A DNA stretch of 38,061 nucleotides from Candidatus Nanohaloarchaea archaeon (GCA_046497485.1 JAWOFP010000056.1:1-38061), one strand, 5' to 3'. Positions 1 to 6,000 are shown, numbered from the stretch's first letter. Numbers: made by a program.

Positions 1-3000
1 GTTTTCGCAGTAGGCCGCTCACAGGAGGTTCTTGCTTTGCTCGCTGATGAGATGGATCGAAGCTACTTTGATTACAATGTCTATGTCGATGGAATGATCA
101 ATGACGCCAACGCACTGCATACAGCTTACCCAGAGTTTTTATCAAAGAAGATCCAGAACAAAGTAAACCGGAAGAACTCGCCTTTCCTCAAAGAGAATAT
201 CAAAGCAATTGGCAGCTACAATGAGAGGCAAGAAGTCTACGATGACGATGCATGCATCATTTTAACCACTTCAGGATCAATTACAGGAGGCCCAATTATG
301 TCATACTTGAAAAGAGAGGCCTCAGAACCTGACAACACCTTGATCTTTGTTGGTTACCAGTTCGAAGGCTCACTAGGTAGAGAAATTCAGAATGGAGCGG
401 ACGAAGTTGAGATAGATGGAGACAAAGTTGAGATCAATCTTGATACTTTGAGCGTCTCAGGATTCTCAGCTCACAGCGATAGACAGCAGATAATCAACTT
501 CACCAAGAACCTGAGATCCACTCCGAACAAAGTCTTGACAAATCATGGAGAGAAGAAGAACTGCTTCTCACTGGCTTCAGGCCTTCACAAAGCCCTTAGA
601 ATTGATACTTCTGCACCGCAAAACCTAGAGGTCAACAGGTTAAACTAGTTAAGATTTACAGGAGAATTTGATAACATGGTAATGATAGGCCTGGAAACAC
701 ATGTCCAGTTAGATACTAAATCCAAGCTTTTCTGCGGATGCAGGAACAGTAAAGACGAGGAACCGAACGAAAATGTCTGTGAGACCTGTCTTGGTATGCC
801 AGGCTCAAAGCCTAGAATCAACGGAAAAGTATTGAAACAGGCCTTGAAGACTTCTCTTGCTCTTGAATGTGATGTGAATGAGGATTACTTTTTCTCCCGT
901 AAAACATATTTCTACCCTGACATGTCGAAAAATTATCAGATAACTCAGTTTGAGCTTCCTGTTGGTGAAAAGGGAGAGTTTGAAGTTAAAGTAGAGGATG
1001 ACAAAATTAATGTAGGGATTACTCGGCTACATATTGAGGAAGATCCCGCCAAGCTAGTGCATGAAGGAGGATCTGTCAAAAAATCAGATTATACTAAAGT
1101 AGATTACAATAGAGCAGGCACACCTTTACTTGAAATCGTTACAGACCCTGATTTTGAGACTCCTGAACAAGCTAGAGCTTATCTTCAGCAGTTGAGCCAG
1201 ATGCTTGAATACCTAGGAATCTATGATCCAGAATCAGATTTTGCGATCAAGAGTGACGCCAACATTTCTATTGAAGGCGGAGAGAGAATTGAGGTCAAGA
1301 ACATTACTGGAACTTCAGATATTGAGAAGGCCTTAAACTATGAGATAAGCCGTCAAAAGCAGATGAAGAAAAGGGGTAAAGAAATTACTCAGGAGACCCG
1401 AGGATTCAATCCTGGAATGGGCTCAACTGAGAAGATGAGAGAAAAAGAGACTGAGGAAGACTATGGATATATCTTCGACCCTGATTTAACCAGGCAGAGA
1501 AATAATGATAATAAGATTAAACAGGCCTCAAAAGAGATACCAGAGCTTCCAAAGGAGAAGCTTGAGCGATACATGAGCAAAGGCCTGAAACCGAAGATGG
1601 CGGAAGCCCTTGTCTCAGATCCTGAGATTGCGGATTTATTTGAGATGCTGGAGTCTGATTTCGATTCAGTTATGACTGCTTCTCTCTTAACCGGAGACCT
1701 GAAGAAAGTACTGAACTACCACGAAATCAGGTTCAGTGAGTCAGGCCTCAAAAAGAAATGGTTTAAGCACTTACTAAAATTAGTTGAAGAAGAAAAGATA
1801 AGCGATAGAAACGCTGAGGAGGCATTGCGTGAAGCAGTCGATAACCCTAGACCATTCAAGAAGATTGTTGAGGATGAAGATCTTCTGAAGTCTGGTGAAG
1901 ATGAGACTGCCCAAGTAGTGGAGCAAGTGATTGAAGAGGAAGACGATGCTGTAGAGGACTACCATGACGGCGATGAAGGAGCATTGAACTATCTGGTAGG
2001 CCAAGTTATGTCTACAAGCGGCGGTAAGGCAGATCCTAAAAACGCCCGAGAACTTTTGAAAGAACAGCTTGAAAATTAGATAATATGAAGTTCGAGCCTA
2101 AAGAATCAAACTTAGTAGATAAAAACACCGAAATCACTTCTCTATTCGATAAGGAAGACGCTAATTTTGACGCAGTAATCTCTAAGGTAGATGGTTATCA
2201 TCCTGAAGAAGGAGAAAAGGTAATTAATGAGGAAAGTGAGCGTGCTTACTATGTCTTGGAAGGAGAAGGCACCATATATGTTCGTGACAATGATTTCTCT
2301 GTAAGCTCCGGAGATCTAATATTTATTGAGAAAGGGAAAGGCCATGCACTGGAAGGAGATATCAGAACTTTAGTAATTACTAGTCCTCCTTTCAACCCTG
2401 AAAATGAGAGGATAGAATGAAAGCACACAATTTTTTGGAGGGAAATGGCCTTGATTTTGAGGTAGTTGAACAGGATAATCCGACTAAGGACTGTGATGAC
2501 GCAGCTCAGGAACGAGGAGTAGAAACTTCTCAGATTGTCAAGAGTTTGATAGTTGAGAGACATAAAGAGAAAGGAGTGAAAAAAGGTGATTTGATTCATG
2601 TCTTACTGCCTGGAGACCGAGAAATTAGCGAGAAAAAGTTTGGGGAACATCATCTAATCTCTCCAGAAAAATCCAAGGAACTTACGGGATTTGAATCAGG
2701 CACGGTACATCCATTCTCCACAGAAATTGAACATGTTATAGATTACAGAGTACTGGAAAACGAGGAAGTATCATTTACAGTCGGAGAACAGCTTAAAGGA
2801 GTAATAATAAACTCAAAAGAATTCAGGAAAGGCCTAGAAAAATCAAATTTTGATTATGAAATCAAGGATATCTCCCTAACTAAACAGGAAGATATTGATC
2901 TTCTTGAATCTGAAAGCCTGGACAAGGAGGATGCAATGTTTGTCGCGGATAAAGGCCTAGCACCACTCTATTTAGAGCTAAATTATGATTCTGAGGATGT

Positions 3001-6000
3001 AATTAAGTCTTTTCAGGAGCTTCTACGCCGCGACATAAGACCTGAGAAAGAGATAGTTACTGAAATAATTGAAGCTTCAGAGAACCTGAATCATTTGCAG
3101 AAACTAGTTGAAACTTATGCTGAGACAGGCAAGATTGAAGATTCAGGAAGCTTTGAATTAGAGGAAGTTATAGATGAGATATTGGATGAAAATTCTGAGG
3201 CCTTAGAAGATTTGAAGGAGGGAAAGCAGTCAGTTGAAAACTTTATAATCGGACAGGTTATGCAGAGGACATCTGGTAGAGCCAGGCCTGAAAGAGTTAA
3301 GGAGGTTCTAAATAATGAGTTCAGATGAGTTAGTAGATGAAAAAGTTGATGAATTAAAAAATAGAGATAATGTTAGAGCAGTAGCTATTGTGGGTAGTTA
3401 TGCTCGTGAGCCAGACATGAACCACAATGATATAGATATCTATGTGATTGTAGAAGGTGACTGGAGAAGAAGAGAAACTTTTGAAGAAGATGGACAAGTT
3501 TGGGAGATTTTCTATAATTCGATGAACTGGATAAAGTCGTACTTTGATGAAGAGAAATGGTATATGTATCATTGGATTAAAAATAGAGATGTACGCTATG
3601 ATCCTGAAAACCTATTTAATGAGTTAGAAGAGCTTAGTGAAGAGTTTAAACGAGAACAATTTGATATTGATGCCGAAAGAATTAGTTATGCAGTATGGGA
3701 TTTTATTCAAGATATTGAGTCAAAGGATGTGGCACAAAAGAGATTCATGATGTACCATGCATTTGATTATATTTTGAAAAAGCACTATTTAGTCTGTGAA
3801 CAACCACTAGTTAAGGAAAACTATAGACTAGAAAAGCTTAAAGATTTTGACGGGTATATGTACAAGCTTTCTCAAGAATTTCTTAATTCTTCTAGTACAG
3901 TAGAAAAGCGTAGAAAATTAGATGATATAACTAAACACTTCTGTAAGAAACTTGGTAAAGAACCAAATCCTAGATGGAAAACAGATAAAGAAAAATTAAA
4001 TTAGACCTGATTCTGTTTCTTCCTGAGAATCTTGAAGCCTATCTCAGTGCCTTGATCATCTGAATGAATCCGCATCGGCACTTCTTTATCTGTTTCATGG
4101 TAGACTTTCCAGTTTTCTCCGTCAAGCGCGATGCTTCCACCTTCTATAGAATCGGCTACATCTCTCAGCAGTTCGGCCGCATCTTTCCTTGTCAGGTTAA
4201 ATTCCTTATCCATTTATGCGAACATCTCATCTGGGTGATGGCTTGCCTTGTTGAGGAAGTCCTTCTCTACTCCGAGATTTCCTTCCTTCAGGTCTTTGAC
4301 AGCTTCATTGAAGTCATCCATCGAGACTTTGGCATTTTCTATATCGTCTGATTCTTCAAGTGCATTGACTGCTGCCTGTCTAACAACCTGCTGGATATCT
4401 CTTCCAGTGAACTCATCCTGTAGTTCATCTGCTACTAATTCAAGATTAACATCTTCCTGAAGATCAAGTTTTCTGGTGTGAACCTGGAGAATCTCCATTC
4501 TCGCTTCTTTGTCAGGTACTGGGACTTCAATCGCTGAAGTACGGTTAAGTAGTGCTGGATCCATGATGTCAGGAGTATTCGTTGCGAAAATCGAGATTAC
4601 GCTCTGGTCTCCATCTGAATCTAATCCGTCAAGCTCGGATAGAAGCTGAGACATTGTCCTCTCAACCTCTTCTCCGCCGTGTCTTCTATCATCTAGTCTT
4701 TTCTTAGCTATCGCATCTATCTCGTCAATAAATACGATTGCAGGCCTCTCAGAGGCTCTTGCTTGTTCATAGAGTCTTTTGACTTTCTTGGCTCCTTCTC
4801 CAATGAACTTCTCAACTAGCTGAGGTCCGTTAATCATGAACATATCAGCGTCATATTCATTTGAGAGAGCCTTTACCATATGTGTTTTACCTGTTCCAGG
4901 CCTTCCAATTAGGAGCAGACTTTTGTCCATGTCCATTCCCCATTCTTGGATTTTCTCAAGTTTTTCTCCGTTAAGCTGTGCGCCTACATTAGAGTTAAGT
5001 GATTTAATTACGTGGTCTAGGCCTCCGATATCCTGGAAAGTTACATCTGTTTCTACAGGATTAAATTCGGAGTCTTTGACTTTTTCTACAATATCTGTTA
5101 CTTTGAAACTGTTAGGGTCTAATGCTACTTCTGTTCCGGGTGTGAAGTCTTCTGGTTCGTAGTTTGAAGGTACTTCTACTCCGTAGCGGCCTTTCATGTT
5201 TCCGCTTGCTTCTACCCAGATTCTGTTTCCGTCGTATTCTGAAACTATTACTCCTCTAAGCACCGGAGTCTTCAATTGGGTGCCGTTAGGATTCTGATTT
5301 CCTCCAGTTTTCTTCTGATTAAAGTACTGTGGGAACTGGACTTTCTGTTTTTTACCGTCTTCATTCTTCTCGTTCTCTTCTTTATCTGTCATTTTACTTT
5401 CACCTGAAAGAAAATCCTTCAGCTTTTCCAGCCAACTGCCCGGATTCACTACTTGAAAAACATCTTCTTATCTTTATAAATCAAATTCATCCAAAGAATC
5501 CGAAAACCCATCTCTCAAAAAGGCCTTATAACTGAAGGTTTCAGAACCTTTCCCTACATCATATTTTCTGGTATCAGGAAAATCTTCCGGATCTGAAACA
5601 GAATAGACTTTTTCATTTCGATCAATATCCATTTTTGAGGCCTTGTAGATTGTTCCTGCTGCTACTCCTGCTGAAAGATATGATAGAACTTTTCTTCTTT
5701 CCACGGAAAAACTGGTGAGGCCTTTCTGTTATAAAAATCGGTTCAGATTTATAGGATATGAAGAAGACTAAAATTGTCTCAACTATAGGTCCAGCAACAA
5801 ACTCAAAGAAAAAGATAGATGCTATAATCGACTCTGGCGTCGATGTGATCCGTCAGAACTTCTCTCATGTAGACCACGAGGTTCACGGCGAGATATTTGA
5901 CAGGGTTCGAGAGACCTCAGAGAAGACGGCTATAATGGCTGATACGAAAGGCCCGGAAATCAGGCTCGGAGAAGTAGAAGAGGATACATTTCTAGAACAA

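What a model noticed while it worked through the whole genome (the two positions that open the first line are those of the whole stretch)
2417..3328. YbaK-type aminoacyl-tRNA deacylase fused to the GatB tRNA-binding tail (YqeY), linked to gatB
g00296 joins an N-terminal YbaK/ProX-type trans-editing domain to a C-terminal GatB_Yqey domain, the tRNA-binding tail of the amidotransferase subunit GatB, and sits two genes after gatB (g00294). I read it as a free-standing proofreading enzyme that uses a GatB-like tail to pick the tRNAs of the indirect pathway (tRNA-Asn/tRNA-Gln) and hydrolyses mis-acylated Asp-tRNA(Asn)/Glu-tRNA(Gln) that escape GatCAB/GatDE, or else a ProRS-independent Cys/Ala-tRNA(Pro) deacylase. 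A trans-editing factor with its own borrowed tRNA-recognition module, tied to tRNA-dependent amidation, has not been described.
Evidence so far: pfam.tsv: tRNA_edit 55.4 bits (res 21-138, model 2-122 of 123) and GatB_Yqey 60.9 bits (res 212-300, model 64-146 of 148). All 120 listed homologues (44-100% id, 295-313 aa; 194 had E<=0.001) carry both PF04073 and PF02637; every one named by a source is from Nanohaloarchaea. neighbours.tsv: GatB_N near tRNA_edit in 27 of 69 Nanosalinales but only 249 of 100,434 genomes that have both. The genome has GatCAB (g00294, g00577, g00578) and GatDE (g00216, g00220/g00224), no AsnRS/GlnRS row, and a second tRNA_edit protein g00024. Full-text search 'YbaK'+'YqeY' gives 1 paper, on Deinococcus GlnRS-YqeY.
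(Added by a program. Inside this text positions count along the whole contig: contig position 1 is position 1 of the stretch shown here. "Call 12" and the like, gene names such as g00115 and contig names such as C1 are that model's own, and its searches are not shown. The text may have been shortened before it was handed on; [...] marks where a part breaks off. The agent that wrote the report below was given it as the finding of a first reader that could run no searches.)

Follow-up and report, generated by a model that had tools for sequence, protein, structure and literature searches.

The report
Deacylase fused to GatB's tRNA arm
A salt-loving archaeon encodes, right after its gatB gene, a protein built like GatB but with the catalytic part swapped for a tRNA-proofreading (YbaK-type) domain, which probably polices the tRNAs of the indirect asparagine pathway.

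Summary
ORF 2417-3328 (+) encodes 303 aa with a YbaK/INS-type editing domain (residues 1-145) and a GatB-type C-terminal half.

- The C-half is GatB's whole helical plus tail region, not only the tail (hhalign 99.25%). The protein is in effect GatB with the cradle domain replaced by a deacylase.
- The editing domain's nearest outside relatives are YbaK domains physically joined to full-length GatB. Some are inserted in the cradle loop and some are N-terminal. The only named sources are a Diapherotrites archaeon and an unclassified 'archaeon'. One metagenome contig carries gatA-ybaK-gatB.
- gatB lies within 480 bases upstream, on the same strand, in 30 of 33 fusion-bearing genomes of the phylum. 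The 5 genomes with AsnRS all lack the fusion. 30 of the 33 also keep a separate free-standing YbaK paralogue.
- The fusion is not limited to Nanohaloarchaeota. It occurs in MAGs labelled Thermoplasmata and Hydrothermarchaeaceae, and algal-like relatives exist.

Best reading (about 0.5): a trans-editing aminoacyl-tRNA deacylase steered by a GatB-type arm to tRNA(Asn), possibly also tRNA(Gln). The amino acid it removes is not resolved. It is dispensable: present in 32 of 70 genomes.

Novelty: a new variant of a known kind. I found no paper describing it.

The parts
676..2079 (+). gatB, 467 aa: complete GatB with cradle, helical and tail domains
   Evidence: One search gives the ORF. GatB_N 314.9 bits and GatB_Yqey 113.2 bits. 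NF004012 at 533 bits (cut-off 338).
2085..2420 (+). Small cupin gene, 111 aa, between gatB and the fusion. It is present at this place in only some relatives.
   Evidence: Cupin_2 35.1 bits; a cupin match lies between gatB and the fusion in 5 of 19 related loci.
2417..3328 (+). The fusion gene, 303 aa. Its start overlaps the cupin stop by 4 bases.
   Evidence: AlphaFold2 model: mean pLDDT 91.8, pTM 0.79.
2417..2851 (+). Residues 1-145: YbaK/INS-superfamily aminoacyl-tRNA editing domain. It carries K42 (bases 2540-2542) and the G95-T-V-H-P99 loop (bases 2699-2713).
   Evidence: Foldseek best hits: 1wdv (E 3.4e-10, TM by target 0.82) and 2cx5 (0.78). Profile search against PDB: 1wdv 9.6e-11, 2cx5 4.9e-09. 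K42, G95 and P99 are kept in all 126 Nanohaloarchaeota-type rows.
2852..3121 (+). Residues 146-235: helical region homologous to the GatB helical domain
   Evidence: hhalign of the fusion family against Nanohaloarchaeal GatB: fusion 122-302 aligns with GatB 261-467, probability 99.25%, E 5.4e-20, 180 columns. Foldseek on the C-half model: 3ip4_B aligned over 179 columns, TM by query 0.56.
3122..3328 (+). Residues 236-303 plus the stop codon: GatB-type tail domain (four helices). It carries K267-E-G-K-Q-S272 and M282, G287, A289, P291.
   Evidence: phmmer against S. aureus GatB: query 236-301 aligns with chain 406-471 without gaps. G269, S272, N275, G279, M282, G287 and A289 are invariant in 34 sequences.
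3315..4004 (+). Pol-beta-type nucleotidyltransferase gene, 229 aa. It overlaps the end of the fusion gene by 14 bases. It is a syntenic neighbour; no functional tie is shown.
   Evidence: Polbeta 27.9 bits; it follows the fusion, or follows gatB directly where the fusion is absent.

Best explanation
The gene encodes a free-standing aminoacyl-tRNA deacylase built on the plan of GatB.

Architecture. A YbaK/INS-type hydrolytic domain, nearest to APE2540 and ProXp-x, sits where GatB has its cradle (kinase/amidation) domain. It is followed by GatB's own helical and tail domains. In GatB these two domains hold the elbow of the tRNA (D-loop and variable loop) while the 3' end enters the cradle.

Proposed mechanism. 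The GatB-type arm docks the tRNAs that GatCAB works on. In archaea that is mainly tRNA(Asn), and perhaps tRNA(Gln). The acylated 3' end then reaches the YbaK pocket, where the ester bond is hydrolysed with the help of K42 and the G95-x-x-x-P99 loop.

Likely substrate. Most probably Asp-tRNA(Asn) that has left or missed GatCAB without being amidated, or another wrong or dead-end acyl group on that tRNA.

Shown: the two-part architecture, the homology of both halves, intact catalytic motifs, the gatB linkage, and the sister clade fused to GatB.

Inferred: the tRNA choice, the amino acid removed, and the physiological role.
For: 1. Architecture. Pfam finds both domains. The model is confident (pLDDT 91.8). 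The N-domain matches YbaK-family structures. The C-half aligns to GatB 261-467 at 99.25% probability. Its own model (pLDDT 87.6) has GatB chains as the three best Foldseek rows. The T. thermophilus transamidosome entry 3kfu_I is the best VIA row (Z 8.0, 152 residues aligned).

2. The catalytic signature is kept. K42, G95 and P99 are present in 126 of 126 Nanohaloarchaeota-type, 12 of 12 P0129-type, 17 of 17 algal-like and 19 of 19 GatB-fused rows.

3. The tRNA-binding surface is kept. S. aureus GatB M452, G457, A459 and P461 form the hydrophobic pocket proposed to fit the D-loop (PMC2811023, passages read). They align with M282, G287, A289 and P291, of which M282, G287 and A289 are invariant in the family. 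[quoted passage not shown]

4. Independent fusions. All 15 proteins found with the YbaK part of P0270 carry tRNA_edit + GatB_N + GatB_Yqey. Their sequences show two arrangements: an insertion between the CxC and CxxC of the cradle (P0270, P0136) and an N-terminal fusion (P0298, P0140). In a tree of 66 YbaK domains the GatB-fused clade (20 rows, 100/92*) is sister to the YbaK-YqeY clade (31 rows, 100/98*). That join has support 93/79.

5. Operon evidence. A metagenome contig has gatA, then ybaK (158 aa), then gatB, with 1 base between ybaK and gatB.

6. Linkage within the phylum. gatB lies within 480 bases upstream on the same strand in 30 of 33 fusion-bearing genomes. This includes the most divergent ones (32-33% identity), where the two genes overlap by 4 bases and the downstream genes differ.

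7. Phyletic pattern. The fusion is in 0 of the 5 genomes with an AsnRS above cut-off. gatB was found in all 33 fusion-bearing genomes, in one of them in two pieces at contig ends.

8. It is not a replacement for the ordinary deacylase. 30 of 33 fusion-bearing genomes also have the free-standing paralogue, whose best PDB match is 2cx5/ProXp-x.

9. In the window's own genome the D-loops, read off the aragorn drawings, have 8 bases in tRNA(Asn) and tRNA(Gln) against 11 in tRNA(Asp) and tRNA(Glu). This is the kind of difference the GatB/GatE tail is reported to read.
Against: - No assay or structure with tRNA exists. The amino-acid specificity cannot be read from the sequence.
- Hydrolysing Asp-tRNA(Asn) would work against the pathway that needs it.
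- The nearest characterised relative, ProXp-x, acts on aminobutyryl- and Ala-tRNAs with broad tRNA choice (PMC11295145, passages read).
- YqeY-type domains also serve as plain affinity modules, as in D. radiodurans GlnRS (PMC1865053, abstract and passages).
- Within Nanohaloarchaeota the whole block beta-CASP / gatB / NTase / AAA / pyruvate kinase is syntenic. Five good genomes keep gatB-NTase with the fusion cleanly missing. Adjacency in this phylum could therefore be inherited order. The gene is also dispensable: present in 32 of 70 genomes, and absent from 3 single-contig genomes (95-99% complete by marker genes).
- The sister relation of the two clades is not strongly supported (93/79). 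The tree holds only the best hits of the query.
- The genomic context of the Thermoplasmata-like and GatB-fused relatives could not be examined.
Confidence: 0.5

Rival explanations
1. A general ProXp-x-like trans-editing deacylase. It would remove Ala, Cys, aminobutyrate or Ser from tRNA(Pro) or from several tRNAs. The GatB-derived half would only add unspecific tRNA affinity, as the YqeY domain does for Deinococcus GlnRS and the C-terminal domain does for plant ProXp-ala.
For: - The closest solved relatives are APE2540 and TTHA1699/ProXp-x.
- ProXp-x has broad tRNA choice (PMC11295145).
- The genome's ProRS is the archaeal type. That this type lacks an INS editing domain is recalled knowledge, not tested here.
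- Appended helical domains that raise tRNA binding are known (PMC9425024; PMC1865053).
Against: - A free-standing ProXp-x-like paralogue is already present in 30 of 33 fusion-bearing genomes and in 49 of 70 genomes overall.
- This reading does not explain why the sister clade is fused to or inserted in GatB, nor the gatA-ybaK-gatB operon.
- It does not explain the absence of the fusion from all 5 genomes with AsnRS.
Confidence: 0.27
2. A binding or hand-over factor rather than a hydrolase. It would hold Asp-tRNA(Asn) or Asn-tRNA(Asn) by the elbow and the acyl end, either to shield it from the elongation factor or from spontaneous hydrolysis, or to pass it to GatCAB.
For: - The transamidosome is thought to protect its aminoacyl-tRNAs (PMC2811023 discussion).
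- The protein copies GatB's tRNA-binding half.
Against: - The lysine and the GXXXP loop that the INS superfamily uses for catalysis are invariant.
- The gene is dispensable in many relatives that keep GatCAB.
Confidence: 0.08
3. A decaying leftover of a gatB duplication, with no function of its own.
For: It lies next to gatB and is often lost.
Against: - The frame is open at full length in 32 genomes, down to 32% identity.
- 33 columns are invariant, including the catalytic and tRNA-pocket residues.
- The C-halves of all fusions form one side of a split against all sampled GatB C-termini (SH-aLRT 90). The fusion is therefore old and maintained.
Confidence: 0.03

Closest known systems
ProXp-x (T. 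thermophilus TTHA1699, PDB 2CX5) and APE2540 (PDB 1WDV), free-standing members of the INS/YbaK superfamily
   Same: Same fold: TM by target 0.78-0.82. They are the best sequence-profile matches in the PDB. They share the conserved Lys and the GXXXP loop.
   Different: They are single-domain proteins of about 150 aa with no GatB-derived half. The loop reads G-G-V-P-P there and G-T-V-H-P here, with the His kept in all YbaK-YqeY groups. The genome's other paralogue is the closer match to 2cx5.
GatB, subunit B of the GatCAB amidotransferase (e.g. S. aureus 3IP4, T. maritima 3AL0)
   Same: The helical and tail domains are homologous. The D-loop pocket residues and a remnant of the Lys-rich motif are kept.
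   Different: There is no cradle domain: GatB_N is absent and TIGR00133 scores 54 bits against a cut-off of 314.8. It therefore has no kinase/amidation site and presumably no GatA/GatC docking surface.
Deinococcus radiodurans GlnRS with an appended YqeY domain
   Same: A GatB/YqeY-type module is fused in cis to a tRNA-handling enzyme and is needed for productive tRNA binding (PMC1865053, abstract; PMC2811023, passages).
   Different: The partner there is a synthetase, not an editing domain. That module is bacterial and sits at the C-terminus of GlnRS.
Plant ProXp-ala with its C-terminal helical domain
   Same: An INS-superfamily trans-editing enzyme with an appended alpha-helical domain that raises tRNA binding (PMC9425024, abstract and passages).
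   Different: The plant domain's origin is unknown. That paper nowhere mentions GatB or YqeY (0 occurrences of either), and I did not compare the sequences. The plant enzyme belongs to the ProXp-ala clade and acts on Ala-tRNA(Pro).
YbaK domain joined to full-length GatB (P0270, P0136, P0298, P0140 and relatives; only named sources: a Diapherotrites archaeon and an unclassified 'archaeon')
   Same: The editing domain is the sister clade of the one here. It has the same partner protein family.
   Different: In those proteins the editing domain is in cis with a complete GatB, either inserted in the cradle loop or N-terminal. I found no paper on them.

Membership tests
INS / YbaK superfamily of aminoacyl-tRNA editing domains (PF04073) | The YbaK fold | tested here: met
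   Pfam 56.3 bits against a cut-off of 25.5. Foldseek: 1wdv E 3.4e-10, TM by target 0.82; 2cx5 0.78; 1dbu 0.80.
INS / YbaK superfamily of aminoacyl-tRNA editing domains (PF04073) | The conserved catalytic lysine and the GXXXP loop. These features are named in PMC11286415 (passages read). | tested here: met
   K42, G95 and P99 are invariant in 34 sequences and in all 126 Nanohaloarchaeota-type rows.
INS / YbaK superfamily of aminoacyl-tRNA editing domains (PF04073) | Hydrolysis of an aminoacyl-tRNA ester | not testable with these tools
   This needs a deacylation assay.
YbaK proper (Cys-tRNA(Pro) deacylase, TIGR00011) | A score above the equivalog cut-off | tested here: not met
   30.6 bits against a cut-off of 153.25. 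The source names 'YbaK/EbsC' are therefore family-level labels only.
ProXp-x | Placement with TTHA1699 / R. palustris ProXp-x in the INS-superfamily clusters | tested here: inconclusive
   2cx5 is the second-best PDB profile match (4.9e-09). No reference ProXp-x sequences could be put in the tree. The genome's free-standing paralogue matches 2cx5 better (2.2e-10) and falls in another clade.
GatB (TIGR00133 / NF004012) | The cradle (GatB_N, PF02934) catalytic domain | tested here: not met
   There is no GatB_N match. TIGR00133 scores 54.1 bits against a cut-off of 314.8 and matches only profile positions 395-478.
GatB (TIGR00133 / NF004012) | The helical plus tail tRNA-binding region | tested here: met
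   hhalign 99.25% over 180 columns, aligned to GatB 261-467. GatB chains are the three best Foldseek rows for the C-half, although with E 0.009-0.07. VIA Z 8.0 to 3kfu_I.
Stand-alone YqeY proteins | A two-part YqeY fold without the extra helix and Lys-rich motif of GatB (PMC2811023, passages) | tested here: inconclusive
   YqeY structures 8xje and 8xjg match only the tail (model residues 98-157, Z 6.2 and 5.6). The model has four tail helices (248-258, 260-267, 271-285, 291-302) and a K-x-G-K motif remnant, as in GatB.

The most novel reading that the evidence does not exclude
tRNA-dependent amidation has its own proofreading arm. One clade of YbaK domains has been recruited to GatB repeatedly: in cis (inserted in, or N-terminal to, the cradle domain in Diapherotrites-like archaea), as an operon partner (gatA-ybaK-gatB), and in trans as a 'GatB with the cradle swapped for a deacylase' in Nanohaloarchaeota, Thermoplasmata-like archaea and some algae. 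This would give GatCAB the equivalent of a synthetase editing site. That site would clear Asp-tRNA(Asn)/Glu-tRNA(Gln) that fail to be amidated. Alternatively it would clear dead-end products of the activated intermediate, such as pyroglutamyl-tRNA (this last idea is from recalled chemistry, not from any call).
Probability: 0.35. Interest if true: 0.85.

Novelty: new variant of a known kind. Interest (0 to 1): 0.72.

Why it matters
Organisms that make Asn-tRNA and Gln-tRNA indirectly must keep the deliberately mischarged intermediates out of translation. The known safeguards are channelling in the transamidosome and rejection by the elongation factor. No dedicated hydrolytic editor is known for this pathway.

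A deacylase that carries GatB's own tRNA-recognition arm, together with sister domains built into GatB itself, would be such an editor. It would also be a clear natural case of a proofreading enzyme gaining tRNA specificity by borrowing the recognition module of the enzyme it backs up. The idea is directly testable with a few aminoacyl-tRNA substrates.

If instead it turns out to be a general ProXp-x-like enzyme, it is a modest addition to the list of INS-superfamily architectures.

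Tried and rejected
- The metagenome scan with the P0129-clade alignment was swamped by ordinary GatB tails, because one search pattern was the GatB tail motif. 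540 relatives were found and 80 kept. Only L086 matched over the full length (26% identity, 2.1-kb contig), and I did not analyse it. As a result the gene neighbourhoods of the Thermoplasmata-like fusions and of the YbaK-GatB fusions were not obtained. Scanning those 80 loci for YbaK domains gave 2 hits, L039 and L056.
- The Atlas search returned only the protein's own cluster by features, plus plain YbaK and HDOD-YbaK clusters by structure.
- Sequencing runs: no RNA holder was listed, and the best DNA holder has 0.39 of the words. I did not lay reads.
- Foldseek on the C-half gave no match at E<=0.001. By the tool's own note, VIA Z values of 5-8 for a helical model are in the range of common arrangements. 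The structural support for the C-half therefore rests on GatB ranking first, together with the hhalign result.
- Reference ProXp-x, ProXp-ala and YbaK sequences could not be added to the tree, since PDB sequences are not stored as proteins.
- Rejected idea, a recent partial duplication of the neighbouring gatB: the C-half tree separates all 32 fusion C-halves from all 32 GatB C-termini (SH-aLRT 90).
- Literature searches that found no description of a YbaK-GatB or YbaK-YqeY fusion:
  - 'yqey' + 'editing domain': 3 papers.
  - 'gatb' + 'ybak': 12 papers, of which I read passages of 3.
  - 'amidotransferase' + 'editing domain' + 'dpann': 1 paper, listing only.
  - 'asp-trnaasn' + 'deacylase': 12 papers, listing only apart from those already read.
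  - 'nanohaloarchaea' + 'aminoacyl-trna' + 'amidotransferase': 0 papers.
  - 'pf04073' + 'pf02637': 0 papers.
  - 'proxp-7': 2 papers.
- The classification paper that defines ProXp-7, -8 and -9 (Kuzmishin Nagy et al. 2020) was not seen. It may already list this architecture.

Full report
**1. What is in the sequence**

An ATG-started ORF runs from 2417 to 3328 on the + strand and gives 303 aa. It is the fourth of five co-directional, tightly packed genes:
- a beta-CASP/RMMBL nuclease gene, cut by the window start, ending at 648;
- gatB, 676-2079;
- a 111-aa cupin gene, 2085-2420;
- the fusion, 2417-3328, overlapping the cupin stop by 4 bases;
- a Pol-beta-type nucleotidyltransferase gene, 3315-4004, overlapping the fusion by 14 bases.

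Pfam gives tRNA_edit at 56.3 bits (residues 21-138) and GatB_Yqey at 62.1 bits (residues 212-300, profile positions 64-146 of 148). NCBIfam gives only partial matches. The GatB equivalogs match over their last 70-90 positions. TIGR00011 (YbaK/EbsC) scores 30.6 bits against a cut-off of 153.

An AlphaFold2 model built on 34 family members is confident (mean pLDDT 91.8, pTM 0.79).

**2. The N-terminal half is an intact YbaK/INS-type editing domain**

A profile of 19 N-domains finds APE2540 (1wdv, 9.6e-11) and TTHA1699 (2cx5, 4.9e-09) as the best solved relatives. E. coli and H. influenzae YbaK and the ProRS insertion domains rank lower. Foldseek on the model agrees: 1wdv has TM by target 0.82, 2cx5 0.78 and 1dbu 0.80. 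A 2024 review uses 2CX5 as the structure of ProXp-x, an aminobutyryl- and Ala-tRNA deacylase with broad tRNA choice (PMC11295145, passages read).

The two features the field uses to recognise an active member are the conserved lysine and the GXXXP loop (PMC11286415, passages read). Here they are K42 and G95-T-V-H-P99, and they are invariant. The histidine in the loop is kept in every YbaK-YqeY group: 126 of 126, 12 of 12, 1 of 1 and 17 of 17 rows. The domains fused to GatB have proline at that position (19 of 19).

**3. The C-terminal half is the whole tRNA-binding part of GatB, not only the tail**

A profile-profile comparison of the fusion family with 17 Nanohaloarchaeal GatB proteins aligns fusion 122-302 with GatB 261-467. 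The probability is 99.25%, E is 5.4e-20, and 180 columns are aligned. In two divergent members plain BLAST already aligns fusion 153-303 with GatB 297-465.

A separate model of residues 146-303 (pLDDT 87.6) has three GatB chains as its best Foldseek rows. 3ip4_B aligns over 179 columns with TM by query 0.56. The E-values are weak, 0.009-0.07. The T. thermophilus transamidosome entry is the best row of the search that does not lean on Foldseek (Z 8.0, 152 residues aligned). The yeast GlnRS tRNA-binding domain and two YqeY proteins follow. For helical models such Z values alone prove little, so the claim rests mainly on the sequence profiles.

The ungapped phmmer alignment to S. aureus GatB (query 236-301 against chain 406-471) gives these correspondences:
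- M452, G457, A459, P461 align with M282, G287, A289, P291.

According to the S. aureus GatCAB paper, those residues form the hydrophobic pocket proposed to fit the tRNA D-loop. The Lys-rich motif lies near the variable loop and is absent from GatE and from YqeY. The same paper states that archaeal GatCAB acts mainly on Asp-tRNA(Asn) and tells tRNA(Asn) from tRNA(Asp) by the D-loop, position 49 and the variable loop (PMC2811023, abstract and passages read). G269, S272, N275, G279, M282, G287 and A289 are invariant in the fusion family.

The protein is therefore best described as GatB with the cradle domain replaced by a deacylase domain.

**4. Relatives elsewhere: the same editing domain is joined to GatB itself**

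The exhaustive search of 1.84 billion representatives found 912 proteins at E<=0.001, 22 at E<=1e-10 and 9 at E<=1e-30. Among the best matches of the N-domain outside the family are proteins of about 620-640 aa carrying tRNA_edit + GatB_N + GatB_Yqey.

Searching with the YbaK part of one of them, among proteins of 350-1117 aa, gave 15 proteins, and all 15 carry the three domains. The only two that carry an organism name are from a 'Candidatus Diapherotrites' archaeon and an unclassified 'archaeon'.

Their sequences show two arrangements:
- In P0270 and P0136 the YbaK domain is inserted between the CxC and CxxC motifs near the start of the GatB cradle domain.
- In P0298 and P0140 it precedes a complete GatB.

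A maximum-likelihood tree was built from 66 YbaK domains. These were chosen from 195 domain matches by keeping rows that cover at least 105 profile positions, and 22 representatives of the close family. The tree shows:
- The YbaK-YqeY domains form one clade of 31 rows (100/98*).
- The GatB-fused domains form another of 20 rows (100/92*).
- The two are sisters at 93/79, which is not strong support.
- The window genome's other YbaK gene lies elsewhere in the tree.

The tree holds only best hits of the query, so it cannot show that no other YbaK clade intervenes.

One of 80 metagenome loci fetched for another purpose carries gatA, a free-standing 158-aa ybaK, and gatB in a row, with 1 base between ybaK and gatB. 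That ybaK is most similar to the free-standing group next to these two clades.

**5. The fusion is older and wider than Nanohaloarchaeota**

A search with P0129 (311 aa; tRNA_edit plus a GatB_Yqey match over the full Pfam profile, positions 2-148) found 13 relatives. Those named by a source are from a Thermoplasmata archaeon and a Hydrothermarchaeaceae archaeon.

A further group inside the YbaK-YqeY clade looks eukaryotic. It includes a named Guillardia theta protein of 185 aa, and a 44-member cluster of 388-504-aa proteins with long N-terminal extensions and a weak GatB_Yqey tail.

In a quick tree of C-terminal halves, all 32 fusion rows stand on one side of a split from all 32 GatB rows (SH-aLRT 90). 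The fusion is therefore an old family of its own, not a recent copy of the neighbouring gatB.

**6. Distribution and linkage inside the phylum**

The counts below are over the 70 species genomes of the phylum that were searched.

| Feature | Count |
|---|---|
| Full-length fusion | 32, plus 1 cut by a contig end and 1 ambiguous fragment |
| gatB above cut-off | 56 |
| AsnRS above cut-off | 5 |
| Free-standing YbaK paralogue | 49 |

Further points:
- All 33 fusion-bearing genomes have gatB, one of them in two pieces at contig ends.
- In 30 of the 33 the gatB match ends 3-478 bases upstream of the fusion match, on the same strand. In the other 3 the two genes are on different contigs.
- The 19 named loci come from the same collection and show the same pattern: gatB is upstream in 18 of 19.
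- In the most divergent members (G003 and G004, 32-33% identity) gatB and the fusion overlap by 4 bases, while none of the window's other genes (NTase, AAA ATPase, pyruvate kinase) was matched in those two loci.
- None of the 5 AsnRS genomes has the fusion. Four of them also lack gatB.

Against a strong reading of the adjacency:
- The whole block is syntenic in most of the phylum.
- Five good genomes (95-99% complete) keep gatB followed directly by the nucleotidyltransferase gene, with the fusion cleanly missing.
- Presence varies within genera.

The gene is accessory and has been lost or gained repeatedly.

The free-standing YbaK paralogue has 2cx5/ProXp-x as its best PDB match. It is present in 30 of the 33 fusion-bearing genomes, so the fusion does not simply replace it.

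**7. The genome's pathway context**

The window's genome is 0.97 Mb and 97% complete. It has:
- an archaeal-type ProRS (571 bits);
- no AsnRS or GlnRS above cut-off (the best matches are AspRS-like and GluRS-like);
- GatB;
- a GatA at 472 bits (cut-off 481);
- GatE-like matches.

Asn-tRNA and Gln-tRNA must therefore be made indirectly. Read off the aragorn drawings, the D-loops have 8 bases in tRNA(Asn) and tRNA(Gln), 11 in tRNA(Asp) and both tRNA(Glu), and 9 in tRNA(Pro). These counts are my own reading of the drawings.

**8. How it most likely works**

In GatB the helical and tail domains hold the tRNA elbow while the acceptor end enters the cradle. Here the cradle is replaced by a YbaK pocket. 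The simplest mechanism is that the same class of tRNA is docked in the same way and the acyl ester is hydrolysed.

The following all point to the tRNAs of the amidation pathway, and in archaea chiefly tRNA(Asn):
- the retention of the GatB-type (not GatE- or YqeY-type) tail features;
- the fusions of the sister clade to GatB;
- the gatA-ybaK-gatB operon;
- the absence of the fusion where AsnRS exists;
- the coexistence with an ordinary free-standing paralogue.

Which acyl group is removed is not shown. Asp-tRNA(Asn) that escaped amidation is the obvious candidate, and the enzyme would then have to be slower than, or excluded by, GatCAB. A dead-end by-product of the activated intermediate is a bolder possibility.

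I put about 0.5 on 'a deacylase aimed at GatCAB's tRNA substrates'. I put about 0.27 on 'a general ProXp-x-like deacylase with an affinity tail', and small odds on a non-catalytic holder or a relic.

**9. Comparison with what is known, and novelty**

It works like a trans-editing factor of the INS superfamily and is a member of that superfamily by fold and motifs. It is not YbaK proper, because it falls below the equivalog cut-off. It is not GatB, because it has no cradle domain.

Appended tRNA-binding domains on such factors are known from plant ProXp-ala. YqeY modules fused to tRNA enzymes are known from Deinococcus GlnRS. The architecture as such is a variant of a known theme, and databases already label it 'YbaK/EbsC family protein'.

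What appears to be undescribed, within the searches listed under Tried and rejected, is:
- a YbaK domain on a GatB chassis;
- the sister domains built into GatB;
- the implied editing function for tRNA-dependent amidation.

I did not see the 2020 classification of the INS superfamily, which may list the architecture.

**10. Verdict**

The feature is real, well conserved and intact.

- Novelty: new variant of a known kind.
- Interest: 0.72.

Noticed in passing
P0270, P0136, P0287-P0293 (insertion form); P0298, P0140, P0294-P0301 (N-terminal form): Full-length GatB proteins of 614-709 aa carry a YbaK-type editing domain. In some it is inserted between the CxC and CxxC motifs of the cradle domain, in others it is N-terminal. 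All 15 proteins found carry the three Pfam domains. The only two with an organism name are from a Diapherotrites archaeon and an unclassified 'archaeon'. I found no paper on them.
   Followed up: partly
L039:2007-5522: A metagenome contig carries gatA (470 aa), a free-standing ybaK (158 aa) and gatB (472 aa) in a row on one strand, with 1 base between ybaK and gatB.
   Followed up: partly
L056:1156-5542: gatB is followed 1 base later by a 396-aa gene whose sequence motifs I recognised as AlaX-like (recalled, no family search). Next comes a convergent 150-aa ybaK, and then a class-I synthetase gene. This looks like a small cluster of translation-fidelity genes.
   Followed up: no
P0138 (Guillardia theta, 185 aa); P0157 cluster (44 members, 388-504 aa); P0150, P0179, P0236, P0147: Eukaryote-like relatives fall inside the YbaK-YqeY clade. 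Some have long N-terminal extensions and a weak GatB_Yqey tail. They might be organelle-targeted proteins, but their origin was not verified.
   Followed up: partly
L017 (contig JBLGBK010000009.1): A contig filed under a 'Colwellia polaris' MAG carries the Nanohaloarchaeal block gatB, fusion, NTase, AAA, pyruvate kinase at 47-76% protein identity to the window. It is probably a mis-binned contig.
   Followed up: no
window 3315-4004: A Pol-beta-type nucleotidyltransferase gene overlaps the end of the fusion gene by 14 bases. In relatives that lack the fusion it follows gatB directly. Its function is unknown.
   Followed up: partly
G000:C2:17931-18434 (L001:1396-1899, minus strand): A second, free-standing YbaK-type gene of 168 aa carries a roughly 45-aa N-terminal extension. 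Its best PDB match is 2cx5. It is present in 49 of 70 genomes of the phylum and lies next to a gene with a class-I synthetase HIGH-type motif (my reading of the sequence, no family search).
   Followed up: partly
G000:C40:8558-8695: A stretch is 100% identical to the first 46 residues of the C2 paralogue. It is probably an overlap between assembly contig ends.
   Followed up: no
window 8965-9110 (minus strand); also 7162-7238, 11791-11865, 24322-24393: tRNA genes lie in the window. aragorn calls a tRNA-Ala(CGC) with a 72-base intron, and also finds two tRNA-Arg and one tRNA-Thr.
   Followed up: no
G000:C32:35105-36472: GatA matches over its full length (positions 10-462 of 466) but scores 472 bits, just under the NCBIfam cut-off of 481.
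   Followed up: no
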